The notes: generated by a model not told the origin, from the sequence alone. Shown: positions 6,754 to 22,920, counted from the first letter of the stretch. The stretch is DNA of 64,000 bases from an uncultured Gammaproteobacteria bacterium (GCA_964489145.1 CAZAXL010000006.1:1614-65613); one strand, 5' to 3'. Translations and numbers: made by a program.

Positions 6754-6849
6754 CAGTTTGACTGCGGGGAAAGCGCGTTAATTTTGCGGAAATTACTGCC
6801 ATGCCCCAGGCTTGACAATGGTGTGACTTAGTGTTAACTTTCGCTCAAG

Positions 6850-7293: not shown

Positions 7294-7335
7294 TAATATA
7301 GACGGAAACAATCCGGTAGGTTAATATGAATAAGG

Positions 7336-8692: not shown

Positions 8693-8693
8693 G

Positions 8694-9653
8694 ATGGATC
8701 TGCCCAAACTAACCGATATTGATGTTGCCGGAAAAAAAGTTCTTCTCAGAGCCGATTTGGATATTGTCGGATCTGAGAATTATAGACTTGATGCAATTAC
8801 ACCTACTTTAGACTTCCTTTTCAATAAGGCCTCAAAAATAACAGTTATCGGACACAAGGGGAGGCCCGGAGGGGTATACGACGAGGGTTTAAGCACAAAA
8901 GGACTGCAGCTGTTTTTCGATAAATGGGGAGCGAAAGTTGAAGAAAATCTAAGGTTTGATCCCGGGGAAGAGGGTAATGACCCTGAATTCGCTAAAAAGT
9001 TGGCGGGTTTGGGTGATGTCTTTATTAATGAGGCATTTGCATCATCTCATCGGGATTCAGCCTCAATCACTTCGCTTCCAAAGTTGCTGCCTCACGCGGC
9101 CGGGATAAGATTTGCTCAAGAAGTAGAGAATCTAAATAAAGTTTTGGAAGACCCCAAAAGGCCGATTTTGTTTATTATCGGTGGGTCAAAAGACGACAAG
9201 GTCGACTATATAAAAAGTCTGGAACCCTTTGCAGACAAAATATTAGTTGGTGGGAGACTCCCCGAGTATTACGGGGATAGGGCTCTTGAAAGCGTAAGGG
9301 AACAAAAAGAAGGAGATAAACTGGTTATCGCAAATCTGGTGCAGGATAAAGAAGATATCACTCTGAACTCGATTGAGAGGTTTGAGAAAGAGATAGGGAA
9401 AGCGAAAACAATAGTTCTTGCCGGACCGATGGGAAAATATGAAGTAGAAGGCCACATGCAGGGAACTGAAAGGATTTTCAGGGCTGTTGCAAATTCTAAT
9501 ACATATAAAGTAACCGGAGGAGGAGATAGTCTTGTTGTTATTGATAAACTCGGCCTTACCCAAAAATTTGACTGGGTATCGGTTGGCGGAGGGGCAATGC
9601 TTGAGTTCCTGTCCAAAAAGACACTACCGGGCATCGAAGCTTTAGAACAGTGA
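8694..9653 (+). CDS. pgk: Phosphoglycerate kinase (unusually short, 319 aa)
   Basis: VLLRADLDI, IGHKGRPGG, TGGGDSLVVIDK, VSVGGGAMLEFLSKKTLPGIEAL. Confidence 0.8.
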   Translation: MDLPKLTDIDVAGKKVLLRADLDIVGSENYRLDAITPTLDFLFNKASKITVIGHKGRPGGVYDEGLSTKGLQLFFDKWGAKVEENLRFDPGEEGNDPEFAKKLAGLGDVFINEAFASSHRDSASITSLPKLLPHAAGIRFAQEVENLNKVLEDPKRPILFIIGGSKDDKVDYIKSLEPFADKILVGGRLPEYYGDRALESVREQKEGDKLVIANLVQDKEDITLNSIERFEKEIGKAKTIVLAGPMGKYEVEGHMQGTERIFRAVANSNTYKVTGGGDSLVVIDKLGLTQKFDWVSVGGGAMLEFLSKKTLPGIEALEQ

Positions 9654-9702
9654 TTTTTTAATGTGCTAATGTTAATAGAGGGATGAAGGGGGGTGAGAAT
9701 AA

Positions 9703-9900
9703 ATGAAACTAAAGACAATTTCTAAATGGTTGGTGGTAATCGGAGCAATAGAGTTGGGCTTAATGAGTGTTTTAAAATTTGATTTGATTGGAAGCCTAAT
9801 CGGAAGATGGCCTATGGTTGTGATGATCTTTTATGCGTTGGTTGGGATTTCCGGTTTTTGGGGAGCTTTTGCCATGCTTACCAAGAAAAAGAAGAAATAA
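9703..9900 (+). CDS. DUF378-like small membrane protein
   Basis: 65 aa, two TM segments; strong SD GGGGGGTGA. Confidence 0.55.
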   Translation: MKLKTISKWLVVIGAIELGLMSVLKFDLIGSLIGRWPMVVMIFYALVGISGFWGAFAMLTKKKKK

Positions 9901-9901
9901 A

Positions 9902-10588
9902 CTATTTTTTGTTATTTGCCAAGAGTGTTTTGACGACTCTGATTGGGTATTCCAGAAAGAAAGATTCCGGATGTTTTTTGAGTCTTCTTGCTGATATTCC
10001 CACGATCAGGGCGGGGTCGTATCCGATCCTGCCTCCGACTTTTGCAATTTTAAGCGATAAATCCATATCTTCATGAACTTTTTTATCATCCATTTCCACA
10101 ATGTCCTTTACCCGTATCCAGATTTTTTTGGTAATAACCATGTTGGGTCCGATCAAGTATTTTTTGCCGTTTGCTATCAATTTGAACGATTTCCAGGCTA
10201 AGTCCGCAGGAATGGTTGAAGTCGATTTAAGTATTTCCGAGTCGTTAAAGAAAACAGGTCCGGTAAGGGCGTCGATGTCTCCTTTTTCAAAATTGCTTTT
10301 AATCCTCTTGATCCAATCTTTGGGAACAACTGTATCCGCATCGCATCTGGCAATAATTTCGTATTTAGCTGAATTAAAACCCCTATTCCTGGCCGGAGTC
10401 ATACCCTGAACCTTTTCATTGACTATTCTTGCCCCAAACTTTCCGGCAACAGTCTCCGTTTTGTCCGTGGAGTTATTATTTATAACAATAATTTCATCTG
10501 CCGAAACCACCTGGTTGACGACGCTTATAAGACATTTTTTTATATATTTTTCCTCGTTGTAGGCGGGAATTATTACAGAAACCTTCAT
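9902..10588 (-). CDS. Glycosyltransferase family 2
   Basis: MKVSVIIPAYNEEKYIKKCL; DAD motif. Confidence 0.75.
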   Translation of the reverse strand: MKVSVIIPAYNEEKYIKKCLISVVNQVVSADEIIVINNNSTDKTETVAGKFGARIVNEKVQGMTPARNRGFNSAKYEIIARCDADTVVPKDWIKRIKSNFEKGDIDALTGPVFFNDSEILKSTSTIPADLAWKSFKLIANGKKYLIGPNMVITKKIWIRVKDIVEMDDKKVHEDMDLSLKIAKVGGRIGYDPALIVGISARRLKKHPESFFLEYPIRVVKTLLANNKK

Positions 10589-10728
10589 ATGGGTATATTA
10601 TGACACCCTCCTTACCTAAAAGGCCAGATTAAGGGGGTTCATGGTTTTATTGAATGCTGATATAATAAAATATAACTGCCATGATGAGTAAGTTCGTCAT
10701 GTGCTATCTGTAAAACAAAAAGAAGAAC

Positions 10729-11832
10729 ATGATTAAAGTAGGTATAAATGGTTTTGGAAGAATTGGAAGGATTGCCTTCAGGATCGGTGTTCTCAAACAT
10801 CTTGACGAGATTGAATTTGCTGCAATTAATACTTCGGGCAGTATGCCGGTAGGGAGTTGGGCGCACCTGACAAACTACGATACGATGTACCGACAGTTTG
10901 AACTGAAAGTTAAGGGCGAAGAGATAAAAGCTCCTAGTGAAGCCACAGATGAGGATCCTTTAATTGGTAATTTGACAATACCGGAAAGGAATGTCAAAGT
11001 TCCGGTTCTTGCTCAGAAAGATCCTGCAAAAATTCCCTGGGGGAAATACGGAGTGGATGTTGTTATCGAATCTACGGGTGTTTTTACCAATGAAGAGGGA
11101 GCAAAAAAACACGCAATTGGAGGAGCTAAAAAGGTTGTGATTTCGGCTCCCACCAAAGGGGGAAACGTGCCGACTTATATTATTGGTGTTAACGAAACTG
11201 ATAATCTTCCACAAATACTTTCAAATTCGTCCTGTACCACCAATTCTGTTGCTCCCATTGCTTCAATTATTCACTCAAAATTCGGAATTGAAAAAGCCCT
11301 ATTAACAACGGTTCACAGTTACACTGACGATCAAAATTTGCAGGACGGTTCCCATAAAGACTTAAGACGTGCCAGAGCGGCAGCGCAAAACATAATTCCT
11401 ACAAGTACCGGAGCTGCCATTTCTACAACGGAGACGATACCGGAACTTAGAGGTCTTTTTGACGGAGTGAGTTTAAGAGTTCCAACAACAACAGGATCTA
11501 TAACGGATTTTACGGTACTTCTTAAGAAAGACGTAACAGTAGAGGAGATAAATAATGTATTTAAAGAGGCAGTGGAAAATCCCTTGTATAAGGGAATAAT
11601 AGCGGTAACTGAGGAACCTTTTGTATCAAGTGATATTATTGGAAGAAGCGAATCTGCAATAGTAGATCTTTCTTTAACACAAGTTGTTGCGGGAAATCTT
11701 GTTAAAATTTTTGCATGGTATGACAACGAATGGGGTTATGCCAATAGACTTGTCGAGCAAGTAATTCGTGTGGGCAGAACATTAGAAGGAGGAGTAGCTC
11801 CTACCGATCCGATTTCCTTGTCATTCAAATAA
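10729..11832 (+). CDS. gap: Glyceraldehyde-3-phosphate dehydrogenase (367 aa, with insertions)
   Basis: MIKVGINGFGRIGR, SNSSCTTNSVAP (active-site Cys), WYDNEWGYANR. Confidence 0.9.
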   Translation: MIKVGINGFGRIGRIAFRIGVLKHLDEIEFAAINTSGSMPVGSWAHLTNYDTMYRQFELKVKGEEIKAPSEATDEDPLIGNLTIPERNVKVPVLAQKDPAKIPWGKYGVDVVIESTGVFTNEEGAKKHAIGGAKKVVISAPTKGGNVPTYIIGVNETDNLPQILSNSSCTTNSVAPIASIIHSKFGIEKALLTTVHSYTDDQNLQDGSHKDLRRARAAAQNIIPTSTGAAISTTETIPELRGLFDGVSLRVPTTTGSITDFTVLLKKDVTVEEINNVFKEAVENPLYKGIIAVTEEPFVSSDIIGRSESAIVDLSLTQVVAGNLVKIFAWYDNEWGYANRLVEQVIRVGRTLEGGVAPTDPISLSFK

Positions 11833-11835
11833 CAA

Positions 11836-12477
11836 ATGGAGGAATTAAAAAAATATTCCGGGAAAAAATTTATTAAAAATATTGCATTTTTTGGAGATGC
11901 AAATATCTCCGAAACAGATGAGGCATATGTGGAGGCTTTTGAAGTTGCCGAGGCTTTGGCCAAGAGGGGTTATGTGATAATTGATGGCGGTGGACCGGGT
12001 ATAATGGAGGCGGCCACGAGCGGTGCCAGAAAAGGGGGCGGAAAAACGGTTGCCATCACTTTTGATCCGGTCGGGGCGGTTGGATATGAAGGGCGCTACA
12101 TTAAAAATGTTACCGACACGGAAGTCGTAACCACAAATTATATTGATCGCATGTTTAAACTTCTGGAGTATGGCGATGTTTTTATCATTTTTAAGGGTGG
12201 AAGCGGAACGGTTTCCGAATTTGGTACTGCCTGGGTTCTGGCTAAACTTTATTTTGGACACCACAAACCGATTATTCTTTACGGACATTTTTGGGCTGAA
12301 ATTCTGGACGTTTTCAGGAAAAATATGAATATCGACAGCACCGAGATGAGTGTTTTCGAAATCTGTTCTACAAAAGATGAGGTTTTAAACGCCATTGATA
12401 GATTCGAAAACAAAATTTCCCAAAGGGATCATTCGGAAGACGGCGATGGTTCAATGGATAGTGCTTTTAAAGTATAA
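11836..12477 (+). CDS. LOG-family protein (TIGR00730; cytokinin riboside 5'-monophosphate phosphoribohydrolase-like)
   Basis: GGGPGIMEAATSGARKGGGKTVAI, IFKGGSGTVSE. Confidence 0.7.
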   Translation: MEELKKYSGKKFIKNIAFFGDANISETDEAYVEAFEVAEALAKRGYVIIDGGGPGIMEAATSGARKGGGKTVAITFDPVGAVGYEGRYIKNVTDTEVVTTNYIDRMFKLLEYGDVFIIFKGGSGTVSEFGTAWVLAKLYFGHHKPIILYGHFWAEILDVFRKNMNIDSTEMSVFEICSTKDEVLNAIDRFENKISQRDHSEDGDGSMDSAFKV

Positions 12478-12492
12478 AGCTCCTGAATTCTT

Positions 12493-13269
12493 ATGGACAT
12501 TGATATAAACAATTTGGAAAGTATCTCCGGGCGAGTGAGAAGATATATCCTTGAGATGATTTATAAGGCCGGATCGGGGCACCCCGGGGGATCACTTTCC
12601 GCAGTTGAAATTCTGGTCGCGCTTTATTTTGGAGTGTTGGAGAGTGATGATCACTTTTTTCTGTCGAATGGACACGTCTGCCCGGCGCTTTACTCTGTTA
12701 TGGCGGAAAAAGGGCTTATCGATAAAAACTTATTGGCAAGTTATACCGAGCTTGGATCTTCTCTTCAGGGACATCCCGAAAAGACAAAACTGAAAGGTAT
12801 AGAGAACACCTCCGGACCTCTGGGTTTGGGTCTGGCTCAAGCAGCCGGATTTGCGGCTATAAAGAAAGGTTCATATATTTATTGCATGACCAGCGATGGA
12901 GAACACGATGAAGGAAATCATTGGGAAGCGATAAATTTTGCGGCAAAATATAAACTCTCAAACCTGATTCAAATTGTTGATAAAAACGGAATTCAAATTG
13001 AGGGAACAGTTGAGGAAATAATGCCTTTAGGCAGCCTAAAGGAAAAGTATTTAGCTTCCGACTGGAATGTTTTTGAAATAGATGGACACAATTTTGATGA
13101 GATTTTTGATTCAATTAGTAAAGCCAAGGATAAAAAAGACAAACCAAGTGTAATTCTTGCAAACACGGTCTTTGGCAAAGGCATTTCTTTTATGGAGAGT
13201 AATCCCGATTGGCACGCAAAAGCACCAAATGAGGATGAGTTTAGAAAGGCAATGGAGGAACTAAAATGA
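12493..13269 (+). CDS. Transketolase, N-terminal (TPP-binding) subunit
   Basis: GSGHPGGSLSAVEILVALY, GPLGLGL. Confidence 0.85.
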   Translation: MDIDINNLESISGRVRRYILEMIYKAGSGHPGGSLSAVEILVALYFGVLESDDHFFLSNGHVCPALYSVMAEKGLIDKNLLASYTELGSSLQGHPEKTKLKGIENTSGPLGLGLAQAAGFAAIKKGSYIYCMTSDGEHDEGNHWEAINFAAKYKLSNLIQIVDKNGIQIEGTVEEIMPLGSLKEKYLASDWNVFEIDGHNFDEIFDSISKAKDKKDKPSVILANTVFGKGISFMESNPDWHAKAPNEDEFRKAMEELK

Positions 13270-14213
13270 TGAAATCGATGCGTGACGGATTCGGGGAGGC
13301 GCTGGTTGAATTGGGCAGGAAAAACCCCGACGTAGTTGTTTTAACAGCTGACCTGGCTGATTCAACAAGGGTAAAAAAGTTTGCGGAAGACTTTCCCGAC
13401 AGATTTTTCCAGGTTGGGGTAGCCGAACAGGCTCTCGTAACCGTTGCTGCCGGTATGGCTGGAGCCGGCAAAATTCCATTTATCACAAGTTATGCCGTTT
13501 TTTCCCCCGGAAGAACATTTGAACAGATAAAAGTAACGGCCGCACTTAGTGATCTGTCTGTCAAAATAGTTGGATCACATGCCGGATTTGGTGCTTCAAT
13601 GTACGGAGCAACACACCAAAGTTTGGAGGACATTGCTCTCATGCGGGTGATTCCCAATATGGTTGTTGTTTCTCCTTGTGACTATTTGGAAGCCAAGAAA
13701 GCCACTATTGCGATTGCCGAAAATGGAAAACCATCTTATTTGAGACTGGCCAGACAGGACTCGCCGGTTATTACGGATGAAAATTCAAAATTTGAAATAG
13801 GGAAAGTGAATATTCTAAGGGAGGGTAAGGATCCCCAAGTGGCCATAATCGGCTGTGGCCCTGTTCTTGCAGAAACCCTGGCAGCTGCCGATGAATTAAA
13901 AAATATTGGAATAGAAGTAATGGTTATAAATAACCACACAATTAAACCCGTTGATGATATTGCAATTACAAATGCTGCAAGAATTTGCGGAGCTATTGTA
14001 ACCGTTGAAGAACATCAGGTGATGGGGGGGTTGGGGAGCGCTGTTGCCGAAGTAATTGCTCAAGGTCATATTGTTCCGATGGAGTTTGTAGGAGTTAAAG
14101 ATGTTTTTGGTGAATCGGCAAAAACATATCAGGAACTCTGGAAAAAGTTTGGGTTAACTAAAGAAAATATCATTGAAGCCGTCAAGAAAGTAATTACAAG
14201 AAAGAATTATTAA
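13266..14213 (+). CDS. Transketolase, C-terminal (pyrimidine-binding) subunit
   Basis: Split-transketolase partner; ATGA overlap with the N-terminal subunit gene. Confidence 0.85.
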   Translation: MMKSMRDGFGEALVELGRKNPDVVVLTADLADSTRVKKFAEDFPDRFFQVGVAEQALVTVAAGMAGAGKIPFITSYAVFSPGRTFEQIKVTAALSDLSVKIVGSHAGFGASMYGATHQSLEDIALMRVIPNMVVVSPCDYLEAKKATIAIAENGKPSYLRLARQDSPVITDENSKFEIGKVNILREGKDPQVAIIGCGPVLAETLAAADELKNIGIEVMVINNHTIKPVDDIAITNAARICGAIVTVEEHQVMGGLGSAVAEVIAQGHIVPMEFVGVKDVFGESAKTYQELWKKFGLTKENIIEAVKKVITRKNY

Positions 14214-14893
14214 TTTTTTACACAAACCCCGCCCGCGTCCGGATATTTTCCATCAAGCTGACATTTATACCCCGCAGGACAAGAAACTCCTGCGAATCCG
14301 CCACAGAATTTTTCCTCAGTGTTTGATTGATCAGTGAATTTAAAAGTGGAGAGGATTTTGTAGAATTTAGAACCATCCCCATTATATTCATCCTCAGGAT
14401 AAGTAGCAGTAGTTAAAACAGCAATAATCTTGCTTTCTTTGGCTATGTAATAATGAGAAAAACTGCCGCCACCTTCGTCAAACTCCTCGGCCAGATAGGT
14501 GTTATAACCACTAATTTTTAGTGAACTCTCATTTTTATTATCTAAATCTTGAATATCTTTATAAAACGGGTTTGCAAAGTCAATTTCGATACTTGGAGTT
14601 GTTTCGTTATTAAGAATTGTTATTAAATCTTTATTAAAATTTATTCCATTAACCGTGGCTTTACCGGTATCCTCTGTTAATTCCCAGTTATTAGGATATT
14701 GAATTTGAAAATGGTGTTTGCTGTTGTTGTATGTTTCCCAATTTACAGTTGGGTCAGAAGTGGCTGAAGCAGTTGGGGAAGGGGTTGATGTGAAAGTTGG
14801 AGTTGGCCAGTAGTTTTTATAGCCGATATACCCAACTGCAACCAGAGCTGCAAAAAACAGAATTATTATTGGTGCAAAACCTCTTTGTTTCAT
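14210..14893 (-). CDS. Secreted/membrane-anchored paralog 1 (N-terminal TM, Ser/Thr/Pro linker, Cys-rich C-terminus)
   Basis: Shares ATSDPTVNWETY and ILSTFKFTD blocks with the downstream paralog; CGGFAGVSCPAGYKCQLDGKYPDAGGVCVKN tail. Confidence 0.5.
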   Translation of the reverse strand: MKQRGFAPIIILFFAALVAVGYIGYKNYWPTPTFTSTPSPTASATSDPTVNWETYNNSKHHFQIQYPNNWELTEDTGKATVNGINFNKDLITILNNETTPSIEIDFANPFYKDIQDLDNKNESSLKISGYNTYLAEEFDEGGGSFSHYYIAKESKIIAVLTTATYPEDEYNGDGSKFYKILSTFKFTDQSNTEEKFCGGFAGVSCPAGYKCQLDGKYPDAGGVCVKN

Positions 14894-15918
14894 TTATATA
14901 GTTGTTTGATTTGAGTTAAGGTGTCTTCACATTTCGGATTATCCGGTGCCATGCCAGTAGAACAAGCTGAAACCCAAATTATGTAGCTTTTGGCGGCGTG
15001 GAGAGGATAATAAGCGCCTGCCTCACAGGTCGTGAATTTAGCAATATCTCCCGCGGAAAAGAAGTCAAAACTGCCTGTATAAGCCAGGTGAACGCCATCA
15101 ATTTCCCTGACAAAGACGTCGGTTTCAGCTACTGCACTTTTTAGATTAACAGAAACGTCCGGTTCGTTTAAGCATTTACTCCAAGATAATCGAGATTGGC
15201 TTTTTTCGTATAACTCCAAGTCTTCAACCCGCGACTTTAGATTTGTTGTTTCGGGATCGGTGAACTTAAAAGTGGAGAGAATTTGAAGAATGGTAGACTT
15301 TTCTTTTTGATACTCCTCTAATGAGGCATCATCATCAGCGTTTACAGGATAACCACTCCCAAACATAACGGCGTAGGATATTCCACTAACATCGACATAC
15401 TGGTTCACATAAACTGAGTGATTTTCCACAATAGTCTCTACGGCGGAATATTCTTTTCCAACAAATGAGAATTTTATGGCATTCTTTATCGTCTTAGTGT
15501 TACCAGAAAACCCATACGTTGAAGAGAACGGTGTTACCTCAATAGAAACTACGCCGGTGGGGTTATCTATGGTTATTTCTTGACCTTCGAAGTAATCACT
15601 GTAATGTTCCCTAACACTCCAGCCGGAAGGGTATTTAAACTGGAACTCTTTACCGCTATGTGTTTCCCAATTTACAGTTGGGTCAGAAGTGGCTGAAACA
15701 GTTGGGGATGAGGTTGGTAGCGCGGCAATTTGTTTTTTAAGTTGAGAGTTCTGATAGAACAGGAATACGATAGTTCCCAAAAGCAAAACTATCAGGACAA
15801 ACATCAAAGTAACTAGTTTTGTGGAGCTCGACTTGACTGGCGTTGTGTTTTCGGGAATGTTATTTATCGGAGGAAAATTGCTGCTTGGTGTGGGTGTCTG
15901 GACGGGATTTTGCTCCAT
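14890..15918 (-). CDS. Secreted/membrane-anchored paralog 2
   Basis: SATSDPTVNWETH and ILSTFKFTD shared with paralog 1; ATGA overlap with 14210..14893. Confidence 0.5.
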   Translation of the reverse strand: MEQNPVQTPTPSSNFPPINNIPENTTPVKSSSTKLVTLMFVLIVLLLGTIVFLFYQNSQLKKQIAALPTSSPTVSATSDPTVNWETHSGKEFQFKYPSGWSVREHYSDYFEGQEITIDNPTGVVSIEVTPFSSTYGFSGNTKTIKNAIKFSFVGKEYSAVETIVENHSVYVNQYVDVSGISYAVMFGSGYPVNADDDASLEEYQKEKSTILQILSTFKFTDPETTNLKSRVEDLELYEKSQSRLSWSKCLNEPDVSVNLKSAVAETDVFVREIDGVHLAYTGSFDFFSAGDIAKFTTCEAGAYYPLHAAKSYIIWVSACSTGMAPDNPKCEDTLTQIKQLYK

Positions 15919-15936
15919 ACATTAAATGTACACCAT

Positions 15937-16509
15937 TTAGAAATTTATTGGAATCTCAAGAGTTTTTGAGTTTTCCGGAAGCCCGCTGGGATTGTCATTT
16001 TCCAAAACTAAAGTTCCGGAGCCCGTGGCGGCTCTGAATGTTAAAGTCGCAGTAAATTCAACAGGCTCTCCTGTCTGCCAGCTTCCCTTAATTATTTCTT
16101 TGGCTCCCACCTGAGCAATTATGTTTTGATCCAAATCAACAAGTTTTATAGGAAATGTCCCTTCAAACATCCATCCGGCGGGGACAGTGCCGGTAACCTT
16201 TAGAGGACTTTTCACTTTTGAGCCCGCGGAAGGCGATGAAACAATTGGTAAGTCGGCAGAGGGTGTGGGTGATGGGGTGGTAGTTAAAATCGGAGCGGGA
16301 GTTACCTGATAACCGGCCAATTTTTCTTTTAGAGTTTGGTTTTGATTATACAAAAAGACAATTGCGCCTAGAGCTAAAAGAACAAAAGCAGCAACGCTTA
16401 AAATTGTAACCAGACCACTTGAGGAATTCTGGTTTTTTGGTACGGAATTTTGGGGAATTATCACATGGGACGCTTCATCAACAGGGTTCATATGCAGAAA
16501 TTGTAGCAT
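15937..16509 (-). CDS. Membrane-anchored protein with Gmad2-like immunoglobulin-like domain
   Basis: TM helix, T/S/P linker, then VPAGWMFEGTFPIKLVDLD...TATLTF...GTLVLENDNPSGLPENSKTLEIPI (Gmad2-like, from memory). Confidence 0.4.
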   Translation of the reverse strand: MLQFLHMNPVDEASHVIIPQNSVPKNQNSSSGLVTILSVAAFVLLALGAIVFLYNQNQTLKEKLAGYQVTPAPILTTTPSPTPSADLPIVSSPSAGSKVKSPLKVTGTVPAGWMFEGTFPIKLVDLDQNIIAQVGAKEIIKGSWQTGEPVEFTATLTFRAATGSGTLVLENDNPSGLPENSKTLEIPINF

Positions 16510-16628
16510 AATCTGCTTTACTCATGAAACGATTAGCTCTAAACTGATAGGTACATATAAAATTCTGTCAGCAAATATTAAGCGATTCAAAGAATCTCTA
16601 AGGATGAATTTTATATGATGTAAACATC

Positions 16629-17606
16629 ATGAGAGAAACTGTCCAAAAACTACTTGCCGAAGGCCGTGGAATTCTGGCCGCTGATGAAAGCACACACACG
16701 ATAGACACAAGATTTAAATCTGCAGGGATTGAATCCACTCCGGAAACCCACAGAAAGTATAGAGAAATGCTTTTAACGACCCCCGAGATAGAAAACTTTC
16801 TGGGTGGGGTCATCTTTTTTGATGAGACTGTAAGACAAAAGGTGGGGGAGAAAACTTTTCCTGAGTATTTAACCGAACGTGGAATTGTACCCGGAATCAA
16901 AGTCGATGAAGGACTGGAACCGTTTAACGGAACGGAAGAAAAGGTAACCCGCGGAATTGAAAGTTTGGACGAACGGCTTAAGGAGTATCGGGGAATGGGT
17001 TTGAAGTTTACAAAGTGGAGAGCGGCGATTTCAATTTCTGATATTTTCCCGACGGATGCTTTTTTGGATGAGAATATGGATCGTTTGGCTGAATTTGCCG
17101 AAATTTCTCAAAAGAATGATTTTGTTCCGATAGTGGAACCCGAAATTCTTTTAACCGGTAATCACACCACAACGCGCTGTGATGAAATTGAAACAAAAGT
17201 CCTGCAAGTTCTTTTTGCCAAGCTCAAGTCAAAAAACATTGATTTGACGAATCTTCTTTTGAAAACCAGCATGGTTCTTCCCGGAAAAGACAGCGGTGTA
17301 AAAGCGGAACCTCTGGAAGTTGCCCATGCAACTCTTAGAGCACTGGGTAAATCGGTTCCTCCGGAGGTTGCCGGCGTAGTTTTTCTTTCAGGCGGACAGA
17401 CGCCGGATGAGGCAACAAACAACTTAAATGAGATAGTAAAATTGAAGGAGGACGCTCCTTGGAAAATTTCTTTTTCTTTCGCAAGAGCTTTGCAGGAAGA
17501 AGCCATGTCCGAATGGGGGGGGAAAGATGAAAACAAACTTTCGGCTCAAGAAGTATTTATAAAACGTTTAGAAAAGGTTTCAAATGCCCGAAATGGAAAA
17601 CTTTGA
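16629..17606 (+). CDS. fba: Fructose-bisphosphate aldolase, class I
   Basis: ILAADESTHTIDTRFKSAGIESTPETHRKYREMLLTTP matches class I FBA N-terminus. Confidence 0.8.
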   Translation: MRETVQKLLAEGRGILAADESTHTIDTRFKSAGIESTPETHRKYREMLLTTPEIENFLGGVIFFDETVRQKVGEKTFPEYLTERGIVPGIKVDEGLEPFNGTEEKVTRGIESLDERLKEYRGMGLKFTKWRAAISISDIFPTDAFLDENMDRLAEFAEISQKNDFVPIVEPEILLTGNHTTTRCDEIETKVLQVLFAKLKSKNIDLTNLLLKTSMVLPGKDSGVKAEPLEVAHATLRALGKSVPPEVAGVVFLSGGQTPDEATNNLNEIVKLKEDAPWKISFSFARALQEEAMSEWGGKDENKLSAQEVFIKRLEKVSNARNGKL

Positions 17607-18591
17607 TCTACTCTCCATAGGAGATTCTGCACTTGATGTTTTTATGACTCCTACGGAGAGCGAAACAGTTTGCAGAATCGACACAAAGGAATGTCTGATT
17701 GCTTTTTCCTATGGCGACAAGATTCCGGTTAAAAACCTCGAGTTTTCAATCGGGGGAAATGCTGCCAACAACGCAATCGGAGTGCGGAGGCTTGGAGTTT
17801 CAACCGGAATTGTTTTGACGCTGGGGGCGGACAATGTCGGGGACATGATTGTTAAAAGACTTAAAGATGAGTTGGTTGACGTTACATATGTAATTCAACA
17901 GCCGTCAACTTCATCAAATTATTCAACAATAATAAATTATTCCGGAGAAAGGACAATATTTGTATATCACGCCCCGAGGAGTTATGAATTTCCGGTTCAG
18001 CTTCCCGTCGCTCCCTGGGTGTACCTTACGAGCATGGGGGAAAGTTTCAGGCCTTTTTATATCCACCTGGTTGACTGGATAAAGAGAAACCCACAAATCA
18101 AGCTTGCTTTTAATCCGGGCAGCTGGCAGATGAGGGCAAATTTTGACGAGATAAAGGATGTAATGAGTCTGACATATGTAATTTTCGTAAACAGAAAAGA
18201 GGCGGAAAAGCTTACCGGTTTTGGGGATTCAACAAAGAGAGAAAGAGATCTTTTGATTTCTCTTTCCAAACTCGGACCAAAAATTTGTGTGATTACAGAC
18301 GGCTCGAAAGGATCCTTCGCTTACGACAGCATTAACGGCAAGTTTTTAAGTGCAGGAGTGCTCCCTGTTGACGCCTACGAAAGAACCGGAGCGGGGGATG
18401 CTTTTGGTTCCGGAACACTCTCCGCCTTAGTTCATGGAAAAACTCTTGATGAGGCTCTTCTTTGGGGAACTTGTAATTCAGCATCTGTTATTGGCTACAC
18501 AGGTTCCCAGAGGGGTCTTTTAAAATTCGAAGAAATGAACGCTTGGCTGGCTCGAGCCAAAAGCAGTGGAGTTTTGGTGCAACCTTTTTAG
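17584..18591 (+). CDS. PfkB-family carbohydrate kinase (ribokinase-like; candidate phosphofructokinase)
   Basis: GAGDAFGSG motif; overlaps the fba 3' end by 23 nt. Confidence 0.7.
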   Translation: MPEMENFDLLSIGDSALDVFMTPTESETVCRIDTKECLIAFSYGDKIPVKNLEFSIGGNAANNAIGVRRLGVSTGIVLTLGADNVGDMIVKRLKDELVDVTYVIQQPSTSSNYSTIINYSGERTIFVYHAPRSYEFPVQLPVAPWVYLTSMGESFRPFYIHLVDWIKRNPQIKLAFNPGSWQMRANFDEIKDVMSLTYVIFVNRKEAEKLTGFGDSTKRERDLLISLSKLGPKICVITDGSKGSFAYDSINGKFLSAGVLPVDAYERTGAGDAFGSGTLSALVHGKTLDEALLWGTCNSASVIGYTGSQRGLLKFEEMNAWLARAKSSGVLVQPF

Positions 18592-18602
18592 ACTTTAATC
18601 AT

Positions 18603-19613
18603 ATGGCAAAAATTTTTGTTACCAGAAAAATTCCGGGAAACAGTCTGGAAAAACTTAAAGAAAGCGAGAATGAAGTTGTGATATCGGAATTTGACAGGCC
18701 TTTAACCGCAGAGGAACTTTTAGAGAAATCAAAGGGCGTTGATTGCCTTCTTTCACTTCTAACAGACCGGATTGATGCCGATGTAATGGATGCAATTGGA
18801 CCGCAACTTAAGATAATAAGTAATTATGCCGTAGGCTTTGACAATATTGACGTAAAAGCTGCGGGGGACAGGGGAATAATTGTAACCAACACTCCCAGTG
18901 ATGAAGTTAACGAGGCCGTTGCGGAGCATACCTGGGCTCTGATTCTTGCTTTAGCCAGAAGAATTGTCGAATCCGACGAGTTTGTCAGGAATCAAGGTTA
19001 TTTTGCCGCTTCGGGCGGATATAAGGGTTGGGAACCGGACTCGTTCCTTGGTCCTTCCGTAAAAGGTAAAACGTTAGGGATTATTGGACTGGGGAGAATT
19101 GGTTCCATGGTAGCCAGACGTGCCAAAGGGTATGAGCTTACAGTTCTTTACAATAAACACAGCAGGGAGTTGGAAATAGAGAAGGAGATGGGGATTAGAT
19201 TTTGTGAATTGGATGAACTTTTGGCTTCGTCAGACTTTGTAACCCTGCATGTCCCCCTGACTGATGAAACCCGGGGAATGATCAACAAAGAAACTTTGGG
19301 CAGGATGAAGCAAGGATCCTATTTGGTTAATACCGCCAGAGGCCCGATTGTAGATGAAAGCGATTTGATAGAGGCACTGGACAGCGGAAAATTGGCAGGG
19401 GCGGCACTGGACGTTTTTGAAAGCGAACCTACTATCAGTCCGAAACTAATATCCATGCCAAATGTTATTATGACTCCGCATATTGCGAGTGCCACCTGGG
19501 AGGCAAGAAATAAAATGGGGGAGCAAGCAGTTGCCGCAATTATCGATGTTGTAAACGGCATCAAACCTCAAAATATGGTTGACGAGAAAGTCTGGAATGT
19601 CCGAAGAAAATAA
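18603..19613 (+). CDS. D-isomer-specific 2-hydroxyacid dehydrogenase (glyoxylate/hydroxypyruvate reductase-like)
   Basis: GIIGLGRIGSMVARRAKG NAD-binding motif; start moved to MAKIFVTRK (ATG 18603). Confidence 0.8.
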   Translation: MAKIFVTRKIPGNSLEKLKESENEVVISEFDRPLTAEELLEKSKGVDCLLSLLTDRIDADVMDAIGPQLKIISNYAVGFDNIDVKAAGDRGIIVTNTPSDEVNEAVAEHTWALILALARRIVESDEFVRNQGYFAASGGYKGWEPDSFLGPSVKGKTLGIIGLGRIGSMVARRAKGYELTVLYNKHSRELEIEKEMGIRFCELDELLASSDFVTLHVPLTDETRGMINKETLGRMKQGSYLVNTARGPIVDESDLIEALDSGKLAGAALDVFESEPTISPKLISMPNVIMTPHIASATWEARNKMGEQAVAAIIDVVNGIKPQNMVDEKVWNVRRK

Positions 19614-19635
19614 ACTTCTTATATAGAATAAATTT

Positions 19636-19953
19636 ATGGCAATTTTTGGAAAAAAAGAAGACGAATTTGAAGAAGAGGAAGATTTTAAATCCGGTAGAAA
19701 AATTACCAGGAAGTTTAAAGATCTAAACCCTGAAAATAAAAAAAGGAGAAAAGAACCTCCGAAACCCTGGGGTAAAAAAGAGAGGCTGATTGTGCTGATT
19801 GTTCTTCTTGTTTCGACTTTAACTTCGGTTATACTGCTATTTAGCAACTCTTTTAAAATTAAGTTTGCCGAATTCCGTATTGGAGTACCCGAGTTTAATC
19901 TGAATTCGATAAATATCTTTAAAGGTGAGACAATAGTTATCGAGAAAAAATAA
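19636..19953 (+). CDS. Hypothetical membrane protein, charged N-terminus
   Basis: ORF with a single TM segment. Confidence 0.35.
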   Translation: MAIFGKKEDEFEEEEDFKSGRKITRKFKDLNPENKKRRKEPPKPWGKKERLIVLIVLLVSTLTSVILLFSNSFKIKFAEFRIGVPEFNLNSINIFKGETIVIEKK

Positions 19954-19961
19954 CATTCAAT

Positions 19962-20627
19962 ATGAAAAAACTTACTTCGCCATTCACACTTATTAAAAAA
20001 TCACTGGAAATATTTACTAAAAAGGAAAATTTTCTTTTTCTAATCAAAATTTATCTGCCGGTTTCGGCTTTATCATTAATTTCATTGGCTTTTATAAACA
20101 TTCCCTTTTTGTCTAAAACGTTGGACGCTTCTTTGGGGAACGCCGTAGATATAGTAGTCAGCATACTCTTCCTTGTTCTCTCGGTTTTTATGAGCATAGC
20201 CGGAATAATGGCTGTTATCAGGATAATCGACGGTAAAAACCTGCGGATAAAAGAGGTTTATAAAGAAGCTTTTTCAAAATTTGGAATTTTCTTCTTGCTG
20301 ACAATTACCATTTATTTAATAAATCTCCTGGGACTGGTTTTGTTGATCGTTCCGTTTGTTCTCGTAATTGTTTGGTTTGCATTCAGTAAATTTGTAATGG
20401 TTGATAAAGGCGTCGGAATCAAAGTATCACTTCTCGAAAGCAGGAGCATGGTGAAAGGAATTTTTTGGCAAGTTCTTGGCAGATTGCTTGCTTTCGGACT
20501 CTTTTGGTTTTTCTCGCAGATGGTATTGTCAATTTTACCTTTCGGAATAGGAACTGTTATTTATGGTCTTTGCGGAGGGCTTTTTGTAATTCCGTCGTTT
20601 CTTCTCTACAGGGAAATTAACGGGTAA
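19962..20627 (+). CDS. Hypothetical polytopic membrane protein
   Basis: Multiple hydrophobic segments. Confidence 0.4.
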   Translation: MKKLTSPFTLIKKSLEIFTKKENFLFLIKIYLPVSALSLISLAFINIPFLSKTLDASLGNAVDIVVSILFLVLSVFMSIAGIMAVIRIIDGKNLRIKEVYKEAFSKFGIFFLLTITIYLINLLGLVLLIVPFVLVIVWFAFSKFVMVDKGVGIKVSLLESRSMVKGIFWQVLGRLLAFGLFWFFSQMVLSILPFGIGTVIYGLCGGLFVIPSFLLYREING

Positions 20628-22920
20628 ACTCTGTACTGGCTCCCGTGTCGAGGATTTTGTTTTTCCTATTTTTCTTATCGTCATCTAACCGTTTTTGATC
20701 AAAATTGCAGTGTTTGGTTGGACGGTTCTCATCTAGAAACCATTCTTGCCTGGTGGGACAATTATCGCAGGGAAGTGTGCCCGATAGAGAACAGATATTT
20801 ACTTTACTGATGCCGTCCGGAACTTTCCAATCGATAGATGGCTGCCCGTTTAAAACTGCCATCATGATTTTATTCCAGATAGGAGAGGCTCCGGTTATAC
20901 CTGAGGCAACACGGCTCATGGGAGAGTTGTCATTATTTCCGACCCAGGTTAGCACCAAATAGTTTTGGTTATAGCCCACCGTCCAATTATCCCTGAGGTC
21001 ATTACTGGTTCCTGTTTTGACTGCTATCTCAGGGTGGTCTTTTACCGCCAGGTAGGAGTTGTATCCGAATTCAGGCGCTCTGGCACCGTTATCTTTAAGA
21101 ATGTCTGTCAAAAGAAACGCAACTCTCTCGTCAATTACCTGGGTTACCACCGGATCATTTTTTTCTAAGATTTGTCCCTTGTAATTTTTAACTTCTAAAA
21201 TTGGCATAAAATCGGGTCTTTTACCCGAACCCGCCAGCGTCGCATAGACTTTAGATAAATCAAGGGCTGTAACGGCACCTCCTCCGAGTGTTAAGGAAAG
21301 TCCATAATCGGAGGGATTTTTCCAAGTTGTGATTCCCATTTTTCGGCCCTCCTCAATCATTTTTGGAACACCATACGAAGCAAGAATTTTTACTGCTGGA
21401 ATATTTCTACTTTGGGCAAGTGCGCTTCTCAGGGTAATTTGTCCCCGATATTGCCCATCGTAGTTTACCGGGGCGTAGGGTGTGGTTCCGGGTGTGTAAA
21501 AGGTAATTGGGGAGTCATCGATAATCGAGGCGGGTGTAAATCCGTTAGAAAGCGCGTAAGCATAATTTACAACTTTAATTGAGCTTCCGGGTTGTCTTAC
21601 ACTTGTAATAACATTTACATTTCCATCATTTTCGGTATCGAAATAATTTTTCGAGCCTACCATTGCTAAAATTTCTCCGGTTTGGGGATTCATAACAAGC
21701 GCTGCACCGTTTCCAACATGAAGCCTGTCCAGTTTGTCTACTTCGGTTTTAACAACTTGTTCTGCGGCTTCTTGTATGAGCAAGTCCAGGCTGGTTGTGA
21801 CCTCAAGCCCTCCTTTTTCGACAACACTTTCCCCATATTTATCGACAAGAAGCTGCCTGATATACATCACAAAATGAGGAGCTTTGATTTCCGTTTTTCT
21901 CGAAACAAAATGCAGTTTCTCGGCGGCGGCTGCGCTTGCCTGACTTTGAGAAATATATTTATTTATCACCATTAAACGCAAGACTTCCCTTTGTCTTTCA
22001 AAAGCAAGTTCCGGGTTTGATCCGAATGGTGAGAAAGTTGTCGGGCTTTTAGGAAGGCCTGCCAGAAGCGCAGCTTCCGATAGAGAAATGTCTTCAACGT
22101 TTTTTCCAAAATATGACTCGGATGCTTCCTGGATTCCATATGCGGTGCCGCCATAACTCACCTCATTCAAATACATTTCAAATATTTGATCTTTGGTATA
22201 AATCGTTTCAATTTCGACGGAAAGAATTAATTCACGGATTTTACGTGTTATTGTTTTTTCGGGGGAGAGGAGGGTATTTTTAACAAGCTGTTGAGTAATA
22301 GTCGAACCTCCCTGAACCGAGCCGGTTTTAATATCTTGTACTATTGCTCTAAAAATTCCTCTCAGAGAAAATCCGGGGTGGGAATAAAACTCGGCGTCTT
22401 CAGCAGCCAAAGTTGCCAGTTTGACGCTGTCCGGAATTTGAGTTAGGGGAATTATGGTCCTGTTTTTATCCTTATATATTTTGTAGAGGAGATTGCCGTT
22501 TCGGTCATAAATTTTAGTTGAAACTTCGGGAACCCTTGACTCAAGTTCTCCGGGGGACGGCATGTCGCGGATGATGAAAAAGTAAAAAGCAGAACTAAGA
22601 AATAAAATCAGGATCAATGTTGCAAAAAAAGACCAGGCTTTACGGCGCGGGCGGCGTTTTCGTTTCTTCTTGTCGGATTTGGCAAAAAAGTTTTTAAAAC
22701 GTGTGGAAATTTTTATGAAAATCAATCCCAGACGGAGTTCCTCAAGTCTCAGGGAAAATTTGGAAAACACAGATCTCTTTGCTTTGCCTTTTCTTTTCTT
22801 TTTAACTTTAATTGATCCTATTTTATTTGTGATTACGACCGGCAAAAGAAGTAAACCGGCAAGAAAAAAATATATAGGCTTGCCGACTAGGCTGAGAATC
22901 CGTTTAATTGCTTTAATCAT
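20617..22920 (-). CDS. Class A penicillin-binding protein (PBP1A family; transglycosylase plus transpeptidase)
   Basis: AAEDAEFYSHPGF (GT51), RQPGSSIKV, SRN, KTGTSND. Confidence 0.85.
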   Translation of the reverse strand: MIKAIKRILSLVGKPIYFFLAGLLLLPVVITNKIGSIKVKKKRKGKAKRSVFSKFSLRLEELRLGLIFIKISTRFKNFFAKSDKKKRKRRPRRKAWSFFATLILILFLSSAFYFFIIRDMPSPGELESRVPEVSTKIYDRNGNLLYKIYKDKNRTIIPLTQIPDSVKLATLAAEDAEFYSHPGFSLRGIFRAIVQDIKTGSVQGGSTITQQLVKNTLLSPEKTITRKIRELILSVEIETIYTKDQIFEMYLNEVSYGGTAYGIQEASESYFGKNVEDISLSEAALLAGLPKSPTTFSPFGSNPELAFERQREVLRLMVINKYISQSQASAAAAEKLHFVSRKTEIKAPHFVMYIRQLLVDKYGESVVEKGGLEVTTSLDLLIQEAAEQVVKTEVDKLDRLHVGNGAALVMNPQTGEILAMVGSKNYFDTENDGNVNVITSVRQPGSSIKVVNYAYALSNGFTPASIIDDSPITFYTPGTTPYAPVNYDGQYRGQITLRSALAQSRNIPAVKILASYGVPKMIEEGRKMGITTWKNPSDYGLSLTLGGGAVTALDLSKVYATLAGSGKRPDFMPILEVKNYKGQILEKNDPVVTQVIDERVAFLLTDILKDNGARAPEFGYNSYLAVKDHPEIAVKTGTSNDLRDNWTVGYNQNYLVLTWVGNNDNSPMSRVASGITGASPIWNKIMMAVLNGQPSIDWKVPDGISKVNICSLSGTLPCDNCPTRQEWFLDENRPTKHCNFDQKRLDDDKKNRKNKILDTGASTEFTR

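What the first reader, a model, noticed from the sequence alone, without database searches (positions are those of the whole stretch)
14210..16509. Tandem triplet of secreted proteins with a near-identical 55-bp DNA repeat, suggesting recent duplication or gene conversion
Three consecutive minus-strand genes each encode an N-terminal TM anchor plus a Ser/Thr/Pro linker. The first two share peptide blocks (ATSDPTVNWET[YH], ILSTFKFTD). The block around NWET is ~50/55 nt identical at DNA level (14724..14780 vs 15663..15717), and ~85% identical around ILSTFKFTD. Flanking sequence is diverged. Paralog 1 ends in a 6-Cys knot-like tail. The third gene carries a Gmad2-like Ig domain. This is a candidate variable cell-surface protein family.
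Basis: seen in the sequence. Interest (0 to 1): 0.6.

Follow-up and report, generated by a model that had tools for sequence, protein, structure and literature searches.

The report
Recombining surface-protein cassettes in a Woesebacterium
Two neighbouring genes for membrane-anchored surface proteins of an uncultured groundwater bacterium share a short stretch of near-identical DNA that marks where related strains have cut and pasted the outer part of the protein; this is a familiar way of varying a cell surface, seen here in a new protein family and bacterial group.

Summary
The repeat is real. It spans 56 nt with 53 identical (14732-14787 vs 15661-15716), including a 37-nt exact run. A second block is 27/30 identical (14329-14358 vs 15255-15284). 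In block D1, all 15-16 shared residues use the same codon (p about 1e-8). Outside the blocks, codon sharing is at chance.

P1 and P2 are old paralogs (31% identity), not a recent duplication. Both belong to a modular Microgenomates family: membrane anchor, Pro/Thr/Ser linker, PsbP-like body, optional C-terminal module. D1 (SATSDPTVNWET) and D2 (ILSTFKFTD) code the first and last strands of the body.

At this same site, between a Gmad2 gene and transketolase, related Ca. Woesebacteria strains differ:
- The window has two genes.
- A common strain has one gene: a P2-type anchor joined inside D1 to the P1 body. That tract has 454 nt with no mismatch, in flanks that are 9-18% diverged, and it ends in D2.
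- Another strain has an unrelated body between conserved D1 and D2.
- Another contig has a different body joined at D2 to a 152/153-identical tail.

Best reading: homologous recombination or gene conversion at module junctions swaps ectodomain cassettes among strains. The proteins' function is unknown. Some mosaic contigs may be assembly chimeras. The family-wide codon conservation of the D2 core is unexplained.

The parts
15937..16509 (-). P3: membrane-anchored protein with a Pro/Thr/Ser linker and a Gmad2 Ig-like domain. It is the first gene of the three-gene run. It evolves at the ordinary strain rate (90-92% nt between strains).
   Evidence: ORF; Pfam PF10648 at E 1.9e-8, above the cut-off; strain identities.
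14890..15918 (-). P2: long N-terminal cytoplasmic stretch, TM anchor, linker, PsbP-like body, then a rare C-terminal domain ending in ...CEDTLTQIKQLYK.
   Evidence: ORF; weak PsbP_2 match; AlphaFold model; C-terminal domain found in only 21 representative clusters.
15717..15918 (-). P2 'long' anchor and linker module. It is 82% identical to the M strain and 76% to the G strain.
15661..15716 (-). D1 copy in P2: the junction block that codes (T)SSPTVSATSDPTVNWET.
15285..15660 (-). P2 body (PsbP-like beta sandwich). It is absent from the M and G haplotypes. The H4 haplotype (L036) carries a diverged version, 59% aa identical.
15255..15284 (-). D2 copy in P2: the junction block that codes QILSTFKFTD.
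14890..15254 (-). P2 C-terminal domain (about 120 aa, 4 Cys). In other proteins the same domain follows PsbP-like bodies, a Cys-rich module or a bare linker.
14210..14893 (-). P1: short MKQ-type anchor, linker, PsbP-like body and a 4-Cys tail. Its start overlaps the P2 stop (ATGA). Its stop overlaps the convergent transketolase stop.
   Evidence: AlphaFold pLDDT 78.9; Foldseek to CyanoP/PsbP/Tsi3.
14788..14893 (-). P1 MKQ-type anchor and linker module. The anchor type MKQKGFAPIIIL...GYFGYKNYWPK recurs across family members that have unrelated bodies.
14732..14787 (-). D1 copy in P1, 53/56 identical to the P2 copy. The 3' 37 nt are exact.
14359..14731 (-). P1 body cassette. In the M strain it is 100% identical in DNA and sits behind a P2-type anchor.
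14329..14358 (-). D2 copy in P1 (KILSTFKFTD). It is the right-hand breakpoint of the tract shared by M and W, the left edge of the tail indel, and the left edge of the tail shared with L035.
14210..14328 (-). Cys-rich tail module (QSNTEEKFCGGFAGVSCPAGYKCQLDGKYPDAGGVCVKN). It is missing in the M and H4 haplotypes. Together with D2 it is 152/153 identical in L035, behind an unrelated body.
14788..15716 (-). The 929-nt unit between the two D1 copies (P2 D1, body and C-terminal domain, plus the P1 anchor). It is absent from the single-gene M haplotype.
   Evidence: Spacing of 929 nt; chimeras P0052 and P0054.

Best explanation
The window comes from a Candidatus Woesebacteria (Microgenomates/CPR) genome. 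P3, P2 and P1 form a run of genes for proteins tethered to the outer face of the membrane by an N-terminal helix and a Pro/Thr/Ser linker.

P1 and P2 are old paralogs of a modular family: anchor, linker, PsbP/Mog1-like body, optional C-terminal module. The first strand of the body (DPTxNWxTY, block D1) and its last strand (ILSTFKFT, block D2) are the only conserved parts.

The 56-nt near-identity is a recombination or gene-conversion tract at the linker/body junction. It is not a by-product of the shared peptide.

D1 and D2 are short islands of DNA homology between otherwise unalignable modules. General homologous recombination (RecA-type, inferred) crosses over there. The results are gene conversion between the tandem genes, deletion or insertion of the 929-nt unit between the two D1 copies, and replacement of bodies and tails among co-occurring strains.

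Shown: the excess DNA identity; the modular architecture; and three robust haplotypes whose breakpoints fall in D1 and D2.

Inferred: the enzymology; the direction of the events; and that the swaps change what the cell surface binds (host cell, phage or cell-wall enzyme). The PsbP-like fold is typically a protein-binding module.
For: 1. DNA identity exceeds the peptide constraint.
- 15/15 shared residues use the same codon, p about 2e-8.
- The exact run is 37 nt, against a null maximum of 18 nt.
- The H4 allele (L036) codes the same motif (DPTADWKTY) with different codons, so D1 carries no intrinsic DNA constraint.

2. Haplotype M.
- It is seen in 33 collection blocks, on contigs up to 750 kb, from several assemblers.
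- It is one gene: a P2-type anchor (82% identical), then D1, then the P1 body.
- There is no mismatch over 454 nt, from the left edge of D1 (last mismatch at 15719) to inside D2 (first mismatch at 14333).
- The anchor, P3, aldolase and tktC are 9-18% diverged.

3. Haplotype G (L018, 763-kb contig).
- Flanks are 89-97% identical.
- D1 is 53/56 and D2 is 93% identical.
- The body and tail between and after them are unalignable.

4. L035 carries a different body joined at D2 to a tail that is 152/153 identical to the window.

5. The tail presence/absence boundary lies at D2.

6. The same syntenic slot holds 1, 2 or 3 family genes in more distant relatives.

7. Tandem paralogs in four other lineages also share exact tracts beyond the codon-resampled nulls. 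They lie at D2 or in anchors.

8. Fold and architecture.
- The P1 model has pLDDT 78.9 and matches CyanoP, PsbP and Tsi3 at probability 1.0.
- The family alignment shows only the D1 and D2 residues as near-invariant.
- The C-terminal domain is attached to several different upstream modules.
Against: - All strain evidence comes from metagenome assemblies. Contigs L002, L004, L013, L027 and L028-30 are mosaics of the W, M and X backgrounds that switch inside identical stretches, so they may be chimeric assemblies. I therefore count only W, M, G, H4 and L035.
- No reads were available to confirm junctions or to look for minor deletion variants.
- Bubble-popping in assemblers could hide a few SNPs in the '100%' body.
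- D2 is short (about 25-30 nt), near the lower limit for RecA-type exchange.
- Concerted evolution alone does not explain why the D2 core codons are the same in lineages whose housekeeping genes are saturated at synonymous sites.
- There is no functional evidence for the proteins.
Confidence: 0.72

Rival explanations
1. Peptide conservation plus codon bias only. The two blocks are the conserved first and last strands of the domain, and their DNA similarity follows from the amino acids.
For: - The motifs are family-wide at the protein level.
- Block D2 in this pair shares only 6 of 9 codons, which is not significant.
Against: - D1: 15/15 codons are the same, p about 2e-8.
- None of 100 codon resamplings reach 37 nt.
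- The H4 allele uses other codons for the same motif.
- The linker part of D1 (SPTxSATS) is not conserved across the family, yet it is identical in DNA here.
Confidence: 0.03
2. Recent tandem duplication, followed by fast diversifying selection on the body. The borders are the remnants that have not yet diverged.
For: The genes are adjacent, have the same orientation and the same domain length: D1-to-D2 spacing is 403 vs 406 nt.
Against: - Synonymous sites in the bodies are at chance-level identity.
- The anchors are of two unrelated types, each shared with other family members.
- P2 has an extra domain.
- The P2 body has its own diverged ortholog at this site in H4.
- The bodies are invariant among strains, not fast-evolving.
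Confidence: 0.04
3. A nucleotide-level functional element (a recombination signal such as a Chi-like or uptake sequence, or an mRNA element) lies in the blocks. Selection on that element, not exchange, keeps them identical.
For: - The D2 core ATC CTC TCC ACT is kept in 14-15 of 15-17 instances, depending on the codon, from six or more lineages. These are non-preferred codons, and TTA is never used.
- At invariant Leu/Ser/Ile/Thr sites of housekeeping orthologs, the same lineages share the codon in only 16-37% of cases.
Against: - There is no Rfam match.
- The motif is not over-represented elsewhere in the window.
- The flanks of D2 are not conserved, so a structured RNA is unlikely.
- D1 shows no such constraint in H4.
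- This rival does not explain the 454-nt identical tract or the swapped bodies.
Confidence: 0.15
4. The strain-level 'recombinants' are assembly artefacts. Assemblers jump or collapse at the 37-56-nt repeat, so only the within-genome repeat is real.
For: - Several contigs start or end exactly at D1 or D2, or inside P1.
- Mosaic contigs switch between the W and M backgrounds within identical sequence.
- L002 is a three-way mosaic.
Against: - M is found in 33 blocks, from IDBA, MEGAHIT (k=141, longer than the repeat), UBA and JGI assemblies, on contigs up to 750 kb. An M anchor with a P2 body is seen only once.
- M would need two jumps, at 37 nt and at about 25 nt, every time.
- The G and H4 haplotypes and L035 carry unique bodies that no collapse can create.
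Confidence: 0.08
5. Programmed diversification by a dedicated system: a diversity-generating retroelement, a shufflon/invertase, or pilS-like silent cassettes.
For: CPR genomes often carry DGRs that target surface proteins (general knowledge). The locus varies among strains.
Against: - The three D1 mismatches are C/T, T/A and C/T, not adenine-specific.
- The repeats are direct.
- Both genes are complete, with start codons.
- No reverse transcriptase or recombinase lies among the neighbours within about 6 kb.
- The bodies are invariant among strains.
Confidence: 0.02

Closest known systems
PsbP / Mog1-like fold family (Pfam PsbP_2 PF18933; CyanoP 2LNJ; plant PsbP 1V2B; T6SS immunity protein Tsi3)
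   Same: - The predicted body fold of P1 matches these at Foldseek probability 1.0.
- P1 and P2 give weak PF18933 matches.
- Several homologs carry precomputed PF18933 hits.
- The fold is a non-enzymatic protein-binding sandwich.
   Different: - Scores are below the Pfam cut-off: 23.6 and 18.7 bits against 27.
- Sequence identity is about 10-13%.
- There is no photosystem or T6SS context.
- Here the domain is tethered by a TM helix and linker, and it is combined with a Cys-rich tail or a rare C-terminal domain.
Modular polymorphic loci with a conserved demarcation motif (CdiA-CT after VENN, Rhs-CT after PxxxxDPxGL, with downstream orphan modules). This comparison rests on my own knowledge.
   Same: A short conserved peptide-coding block separates constant from replaceable modules. 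It supplies the homology for swapping modules between strains and with adjacent copies.
   Different: - There is no toxin domain and no immunity gene.
- Both neighbours are complete genes, not promoterless orphans.
- Two junctions (D1 and D2) bracket an internal body, whereas those systems have one junction before a C-terminal tip.
Mosaic surface-protein genes shaped by homologous recombination (flagellin central domain, pneumococcal PspA/PspC, Neisseria pilE/pilS and opa). This comparison rests on my own knowledge.
   Same: - Conserved ends flank a variable middle.
- Alleles are exchanged among strains.
- Short gene-conversion tracts occur between paralogs.
   Different: - A different protein family and a CPR organism.
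- No silent cassette archive and no evidence of high-frequency switching.
- The variation seen here is between strains only.
Gmad2 Ig-like domain (PF10648), for P3 only
   Same: P3 matches above the Pfam cut-off.
   Different: P3 is not a paralog of P1 or P2. It shares only the anchor-linker layout. It shows no excess DNA identity with P2: the longest exact match is 10 nt, which is chance level.

Membership tests
Pfam PsbP_2 (PF18933) | HMM score at or above the gathering cut-off (27 bits) | tested here: not met
   P1 scores 23.6 bits (E 5.8e-5) and P2 18.7 bits (E 1.9e-3). The homolog P0030 scores 26.3 bits.
Pfam PsbP_2 (PF18933) | PsbP/Mog1-like alpha-beta sandwich fold | tested here: met
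   The AlphaFold model of P1 has pLDDT 78.9. Top Foldseek PDB hits are CyanoP 2lnj (E 5.9e-5), PsbP and Tsi3, at probability 0.98-1.0.
Gmad2 (PF10648), for P3 | HMM score above the gathering cut-off | tested here: met
   34.9 bits against a cut-off of 25.7, E 1.9e-8, residues 90-175.
Diversity-generating retroelement target | Template/variable repeat pair that differs at adenines | tested here: not met
   The three mismatches are C/T, T/A and C/T on the coding strand.
Diversity-generating retroelement target | Reverse transcriptase gene nearby | tested here: not met
   The called neighbours within about 6 kb are PBP, dehydrogenase, PfkB, aldolase, transketolase, LOG, GAPDH, GT2 and PGK. None is a reverse transcriptase. 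The rest of the window was not scanned.
Invertible / shufflon-type phase variation | Inverted repeats that flank the segment, plus a site-specific recombinase | tested here: not met
   The repeats are direct. Only short, chance-level inverted repeats are present. No recombinase is among the neighbours.
pilE/pilS-type antigenic variation | Promoterless, truncated silent cassettes that donate to one expression site | tested here: not met
   P1 and P2 are both complete ORFs with their own start codon and anchor. Only two copies of D1 occur in the window, and one in the species-representative genome.
Polymorphic toxin (CDI/Rhs-like) cassette locus | Conserved demarcation motif before a replaceable module | tested here: met
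   This is met by analogy only. D1 and D2 bound the replaced bodies and tails.
Polymorphic toxin (CDI/Rhs-like) cassette locus | Toxin domain with a cognate immunity gene | tested here: not met
   Pfam finds no toxin or immunity family in P1, P2, the tails or the C-terminal domain.
Mosaic genes formed by homologous recombination / gene conversion | Tracts of near-identical DNA with sharp borders, embedded in diverged sequence | tested here: met
   - 454 nt with 0 mismatches in flanks that are 9-18% diverged.
- 152/153 identity for D2 plus tail, next to an unalignable body.
- 53/56 identity for D1 between paralogs that are otherwise saturated.
Mosaic genes formed by homologous recombination / gene conversion | Junctions confirmed in single molecules (reads or isolates) | not testable with these tools
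   Only assembled contigs are available.

The most novel reading that the evidence does not exclude
D1, and especially the D2 core (ATCCTCTCCACTTT), may be nucleotide-level 'docking' sequences kept the same across Microgenomates lineages. They would let PsbP-like ectodomains, anchors and tails circulate as a shared pool of exchangeable cassettes between strains and species. Cassettes that keep the consensus junction would be the ones that spread. This would be a lineage-wide cassette-exchange system for the cell surface of CPR bacteria, and not just occasional recombination.
Probability: 0.18. Interest if true: 0.7.

Novelty: new variant of a known kind. Interest (0 to 1): 0.45.

Why it matters
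CPR bacteria are thought to live attached to other cells, and almost nothing is known about the proteins on their surface or how those proteins vary.

This locus gives a concrete, testable case. It is a conserved genomic slot next to central-metabolism genes, and co-occurring strains carry different combinations of anchor, ectodomain and tail. The exchange points can be mapped to the nucleotide.

It identifies a family, and specific junction motifs, that can be tracked in metagenomic time series. Such tracking could ask whether cassette turnover follows changes in hosts or phages.

It is also a caution for metagenome assembly. Contigs break or become mosaic exactly at these blocks.

Tried and rejected
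- Metagenome scan with a D1 pattern degenerate at synonymous sites. It returned only 3 stretches, all already known.
- Genome scan with the 20-nt D1 core. It found only UBA8517. This gave the taxon but no new alleles.
- Viral contig scan for DQILSTFKF at peptide-level degeneracy. No hits, so there is no sign of phage carriage.
- Word-indexed homolog search with the 121-aa C-terminal domain alone. It returned nothing, although the full-length query and the exhaustive HMMER search found relatives. That search was wasted.
- Rfam at permissive threshold. No match.
- Promoter and terminator scans. At chance level.
- Pfam and PDB sequence searches for the Cys tails and the C-terminal domain. Only sub-threshold hits: Lustrin_cystein at E 6e-4 and Toxin_7.
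- Literature searches for PsbP-like proteins in CPR, for PF18933, and for Woesebacteria with mosaic or gene conversion. Nothing relevant.
- I first counted the 259-aa chimera with tail (L028-30), the 188-aa P1 (L002, L004) and the MDQ-anchor P2 (L027) as independent recombinants. I dropped them after the flank comparison showed that they are W/M mosaics which could be assembly chimeras.
- Molecular drive by gene conversion alone was considered for the D2 codon conservation. I rejected it as sufficient, because concerted evolution does not slow divergence between lineages.
Full report
**1. Observation**

The region holds three consecutive minus-strand ORFs:
- P1, 14210-14893, 227 aa
- P2, 14890-15918, 342 aa
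- P3, 15937-16509, 190 aa

The P2 stop overlaps the P1 start (ATGA). P3 and P2 are 18 nt apart.

The repeat finder reports two direct repeats:
- D1: 56 nt at 53/56 identity, 14732-14787 vs 15661-15716.
- D2: 30 nt at 27/30 identity, 14329-14358 vs 15255-15284.

Their spacings are 929 and 926 nt, so both repeats are in register within the two genes. The 33-nt core of D1 occurs exactly twice in the 64-kb window and in none of 100 shuffles.

The P1 tail has four cysteines, not six.

**2. Is the identity more than the peptide requires?**

P1 and P2 are 31% identical. I aligned them codon by codon and used codon frequencies from 53 long ORFs of the window.
- In D1, all 15 identical residues use the identical codon. 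The product of same-codon probabilities is about 2e-8.
- An ungapped reading adds a sixteenth identical codon.
- Outside the blocks, identical residues share a codon about as often as chance.
- D2 alone shares 6 of 9 codons, which is not significant.
- Resampling the synonymous codons of one gene 100 times never gave an exact match above 18 nt. The observed exact match is 37 nt.

The DNA identity exceeds the peptide expectation.

**3. What the proteins are**

- P3 is a Gmad2 Ig-like domain protein, above the Pfam cut-off.
- P1 and P2 give sub-threshold PsbP_2 (PF18933) matches.
- An AlphaFold model of P1 built on 35 homologs has pLDDT 78.9. It shows an N-terminal helix (residues 8-28), a disordered linker, a beta-rich body and a small hairpin tail.
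- Foldseek against the PDB puts CyanoP, plant PsbP and the T6SS immunity protein Tsi3 on top, at probability about 1.0. The body is therefore a PsbP/Mog1-like sandwich, a fold that usually binds other proteins.
- The P2 model is weaker (pLDDT 67.7) but shows the same body followed by a mixed alpha/beta C-terminal domain.
- That C-terminal domain is rare. It is found in 21 representative clusters out of 1.84 billion, always at the C-terminus. It follows one or two PsbP-like bodies, a Cys-rich module or a bare linker.

The alignment of 35 family members shows near-invariant residues only in D1 (W, T, Y ... Y, P) and D2 (LSTFKF). It also shows a recurrent MKQKGFAPIIIL...GYFGYKNYWPK anchor and a recurrent FCGGFAG..CP.GY.C.LDGKYPDAGG.C tail, both attached to unrelated bodies.

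So the family is modular. D1 and D2 code the first and last strands of the body.

**4. Source and strain variation**

Exact-protein look-ups place the locus in Rifle aquifer metagenomes. The D1 core hits one species-representative genome, Candidatus Woesebacteria UBA8517.

The 90% cluster of P1 contains natural chimeras:
- P0052 (220 aa) and P0054 (259 aa) have a P2-type anchor (MDQNPVQTPISSS...) joined at SATSDPTVNWET directly to the P1 body.
- A crossover between the two D1 copies predicts 86 + 173 = 259 aa.

Comparing all fetched loci segment by segment gives three robust haplotypes at the same site, between P3 and transketolase:

| Haplotype | Where seen | Structure | Flank identity to the window |
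|---|---|---|---|
| W | the window and six or more identical contigs | two genes, P2 and P1 | reference |
| M | 33 collection blocks, contigs to 750 kb, several assemblers | one gene: P2-type anchor, D1, P1 body, D2, stop; no tail | 82-91% (9-18% diverged) |
| G | L018, 763-kb contig | one gene: long anchor (76%), D1 (53/56 to the P1 copy), unrelated body, D2 (93%), different Cys tail | 89-97% |

M and W show no mismatch over 454 nt, from 15716 (the last mismatch on the left is 15719) to 14334 (the first mismatch on the right is 14333). The M anchor is 17.8% diverged, P3 9.8%, aldolase 13.3% and tktC 9.2%. At 9% divergence, such a clean tract has a probability of about 1e-19.

A fourth haplotype, H4 (L036), has one gene with a diverged P2-type body (59% aa) and no C-terminal domain. 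H4 codes the D1 motif as GAT CCG ACA GCA GAT TGG AAA ACA TAT. This shows that the motif itself does not dictate the codons.

A fifth contig, L035, has a different body joined at D2 to a D2-plus-tail segment that is 152/153 identical to the window.

**5. Caveat on assemblies**

- Contigs L004, L013, L027 and L028-30 combine W-type and M-type flanks, switching inside sequence that is identical in both.
- L002 joins a 66-78% identical left flank (species X) to a 100% W cassette and a 100% M right flank.
- Many contigs begin or end at D1, at D2, or inside P1.

These may be real recombinants or assembly chimeras. I do not count them as evidence.

M itself is unlikely to be a repeat-collapse artefact, for three reasons:
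- It would need two jumps through 37-nt and about 25-nt matches in every assembly, including k=141 assemblies.
- An M anchor followed by the P2 body is seen in only one contig.
- G, H4 and L035 carry unique sequence that no collapse could create.

**6. Generality**

More distant relatives keep the same synteny (aldolase ... slot ... split transketolase, LOG, GAPDH, DUF378, PGK, RpiB, TIM). They hold two genes (L040) or three genes (L043) of the family in the slot.

In four other lineages, tandem paralogs share exact DNA tracts longer than any of 100 codon-resampled nulls (repeats):

| Locus | Exact tract | Location | Null maximum |
|---|---|---|---|
| L040 | 28 nt | D2 | 22 nt |
| L043 | 28 nt | anchor | 20 nt |
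| L042 (Shapirobacteria) | 44 nt | anchor | 32 nt |
| L039 | 46 nt | anchor | 17 nt |

The P3/P2 control shows none. Short conversion tracts between adjacent family genes are therefore a recurrent property. The window's D1 is one instance.

**7. Mechanism**

The data fit ordinary homologous recombination acting on short islands of homology at module borders. Three outcomes follow:
- gene conversion between the tandem genes, which gives the 56-nt tract;
- unequal crossover or insertion at D1, which gives presence or absence of the 929-nt unit;
- double crossovers at D1 and D2, or D2 plus the downstream flank, which replace bodies and tails among co-occurring strains.

The 37-nt exact run is above the roughly 25-nt minimum for RecA-dependent exchange known from E. 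coli (my own knowledge). D2 is near that limit, so exchange anchored in the conserved flanking genes may contribute.

There is no recombinase, reverse transcriptase or inverted repeat nearby. The D1 mismatches are not adenine-specific. No RNA family matches. Promoter-like and terminator-like sites are at chance level.

The direction of the events is not resolved: W could give M by deletion plus transfer, or M could give W by insertion.

The function of the proteins is inferred only from architecture and fold. They are ectodomains displayed on a flexible stalk, and probably bind a partner on a host cell, a phage or a cell-wall enzyme. Nearly identical bodies in backgrounds that are 9-18% diverged suggest recent spread of particular cassettes.

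**8. Unexplained**

The D2 core is conserved at the codon level across the whole family:

| Residue | Codon | Instances | Note |
|---|---|---|---|
| Ile | ATC | 14/15 | |
| Leu | CTC | 14/17 | the rest are CTT; TTA is never used, although it is 35% of Leu codons in these genes |
| Ser | TCC | 15/17 | |
| Thr | ACT | 15/16 | |

The next three codons (TTY AAR TTY) vary freely.

As a control, I took amino-acid-invariant sites of tkt, GAPDH, PGK and TIM in three of these lineages. All three lineages share the codon in only 19% (Leu), 16% (Ser), 37% (Ile) and 18% (Thr) of cases.

Concerted evolution within genomes does not explain conservation between lineages. The remaining options are frequent inter-lineage exchange of modules or a sequence-level signal.

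The motif is not over-represented elsewhere in the window. One extra exact copy lies in another reading frame inside P2, at 14998-15008.

**9. Comparison and novelty**

The fold belongs with PsbP/Mog1-like proteins, but the Pfam threshold is not met.

The evolutionary behaviour resembles two known kinds of locus (my own knowledge):
- mosaic surface-protein genes such as flagellin, PspA/PspC and pilE/pilS;
- the motif-demarcated modules of CdiA and Rhs loci.

It differs from them in several ways. There are no toxin-immunity pairs and no silent cassettes. Two junctions bracket an internal body. The protein family and the organism group are different.

I found no description of this in the searchable literature.

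I rate it a new variant of a known kind, of moderate interest. The open question that could raise the interest is whether the junction blocks are maintained as exchange sites across lineages.

Noticed in passing
window 14346-14356 and 15272-15282; L018, L035, L036, L039, L040, L042, L043 (D2 positions listed): The D2 core ATC CTC TCC ACT is conserved at the codon level in 14-15 of 15-17 family domains, depending on the codon, from six or more lineages. These are non-preferred codons. Housekeeping orthologs of the same lineages are saturated at synonymous sites.
   Followed up: partly
window 14998-15008 (minus strand): There is a third exact copy of ATCCTCTCCAC inside the P2 C-terminal domain, in a different reading frame (YYPLHA). 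About 0.03 exact copies are expected by chance in the whole window. Its meaning is unknown.
   Followed up: no
L002 (= Ga0209727_1000725), locus 1-13029: This contig is a three-way mosaic. The left flank (PBP to P3) is 66-78% identical to the window. The P2+P1 cassette is 100% identical. The right flank is 100% identical to the M strain. It is either a very recent inter-species transfer or a chimeric assembly.
   Followed up: partly
window 14210-14213: The P1 stop codon overlaps the stop codon of the convergent transketolase C-terminal subunit gene (13266-14213) by 4 nt. This leaves no intergenic space for terminators. In the tail-less strains the same overlap is rebuilt directly after ILSTFKFTD.
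   Followed up: partly
window 8000-22000 and syntenic loci L018, L040, L043: The variable slot sits inside a conserved cluster of central-carbon genes: class I aldolase, PfkB kinase, split transketolase, LOG-like protein, GAPDH, PGK, RpiB and TIM. The cluster keeps its order across Woesebacteria-like lineages.
   Followed up: partly
L039 7131-8030: An IS1595-family transposase gene lies directly downstream of two tandem family genes. Those two genes share a 46-nt exact (96 nt at 91%) stretch of anchor DNA.
   Followed up: no
L042 10057-10100 vs 11009-11052 (Ca. Shapirobacteria contig): Two adjacent family genes share a 44-nt exact tract that codes the end of the anchor and the start of the linker (LYLLFLNFNKTPAT). 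The first half of the anchor is diverged.
   Followed up: partly
window 16492-16509 (P3 start): P3 is called as 190 aa or 184 aa in different assemblies (start at M1 or at M7, MNPVDE...). The true start codon is uncertain.
   Followed up: no
protein P0013: One family member carries the CGGFAG..CP.G..C...YPDAGG.C module twice. One copy sits between the anchor and the linker, and the other is at the C-terminus. This shows that the tail module can occupy other positions.
   Followed up: no
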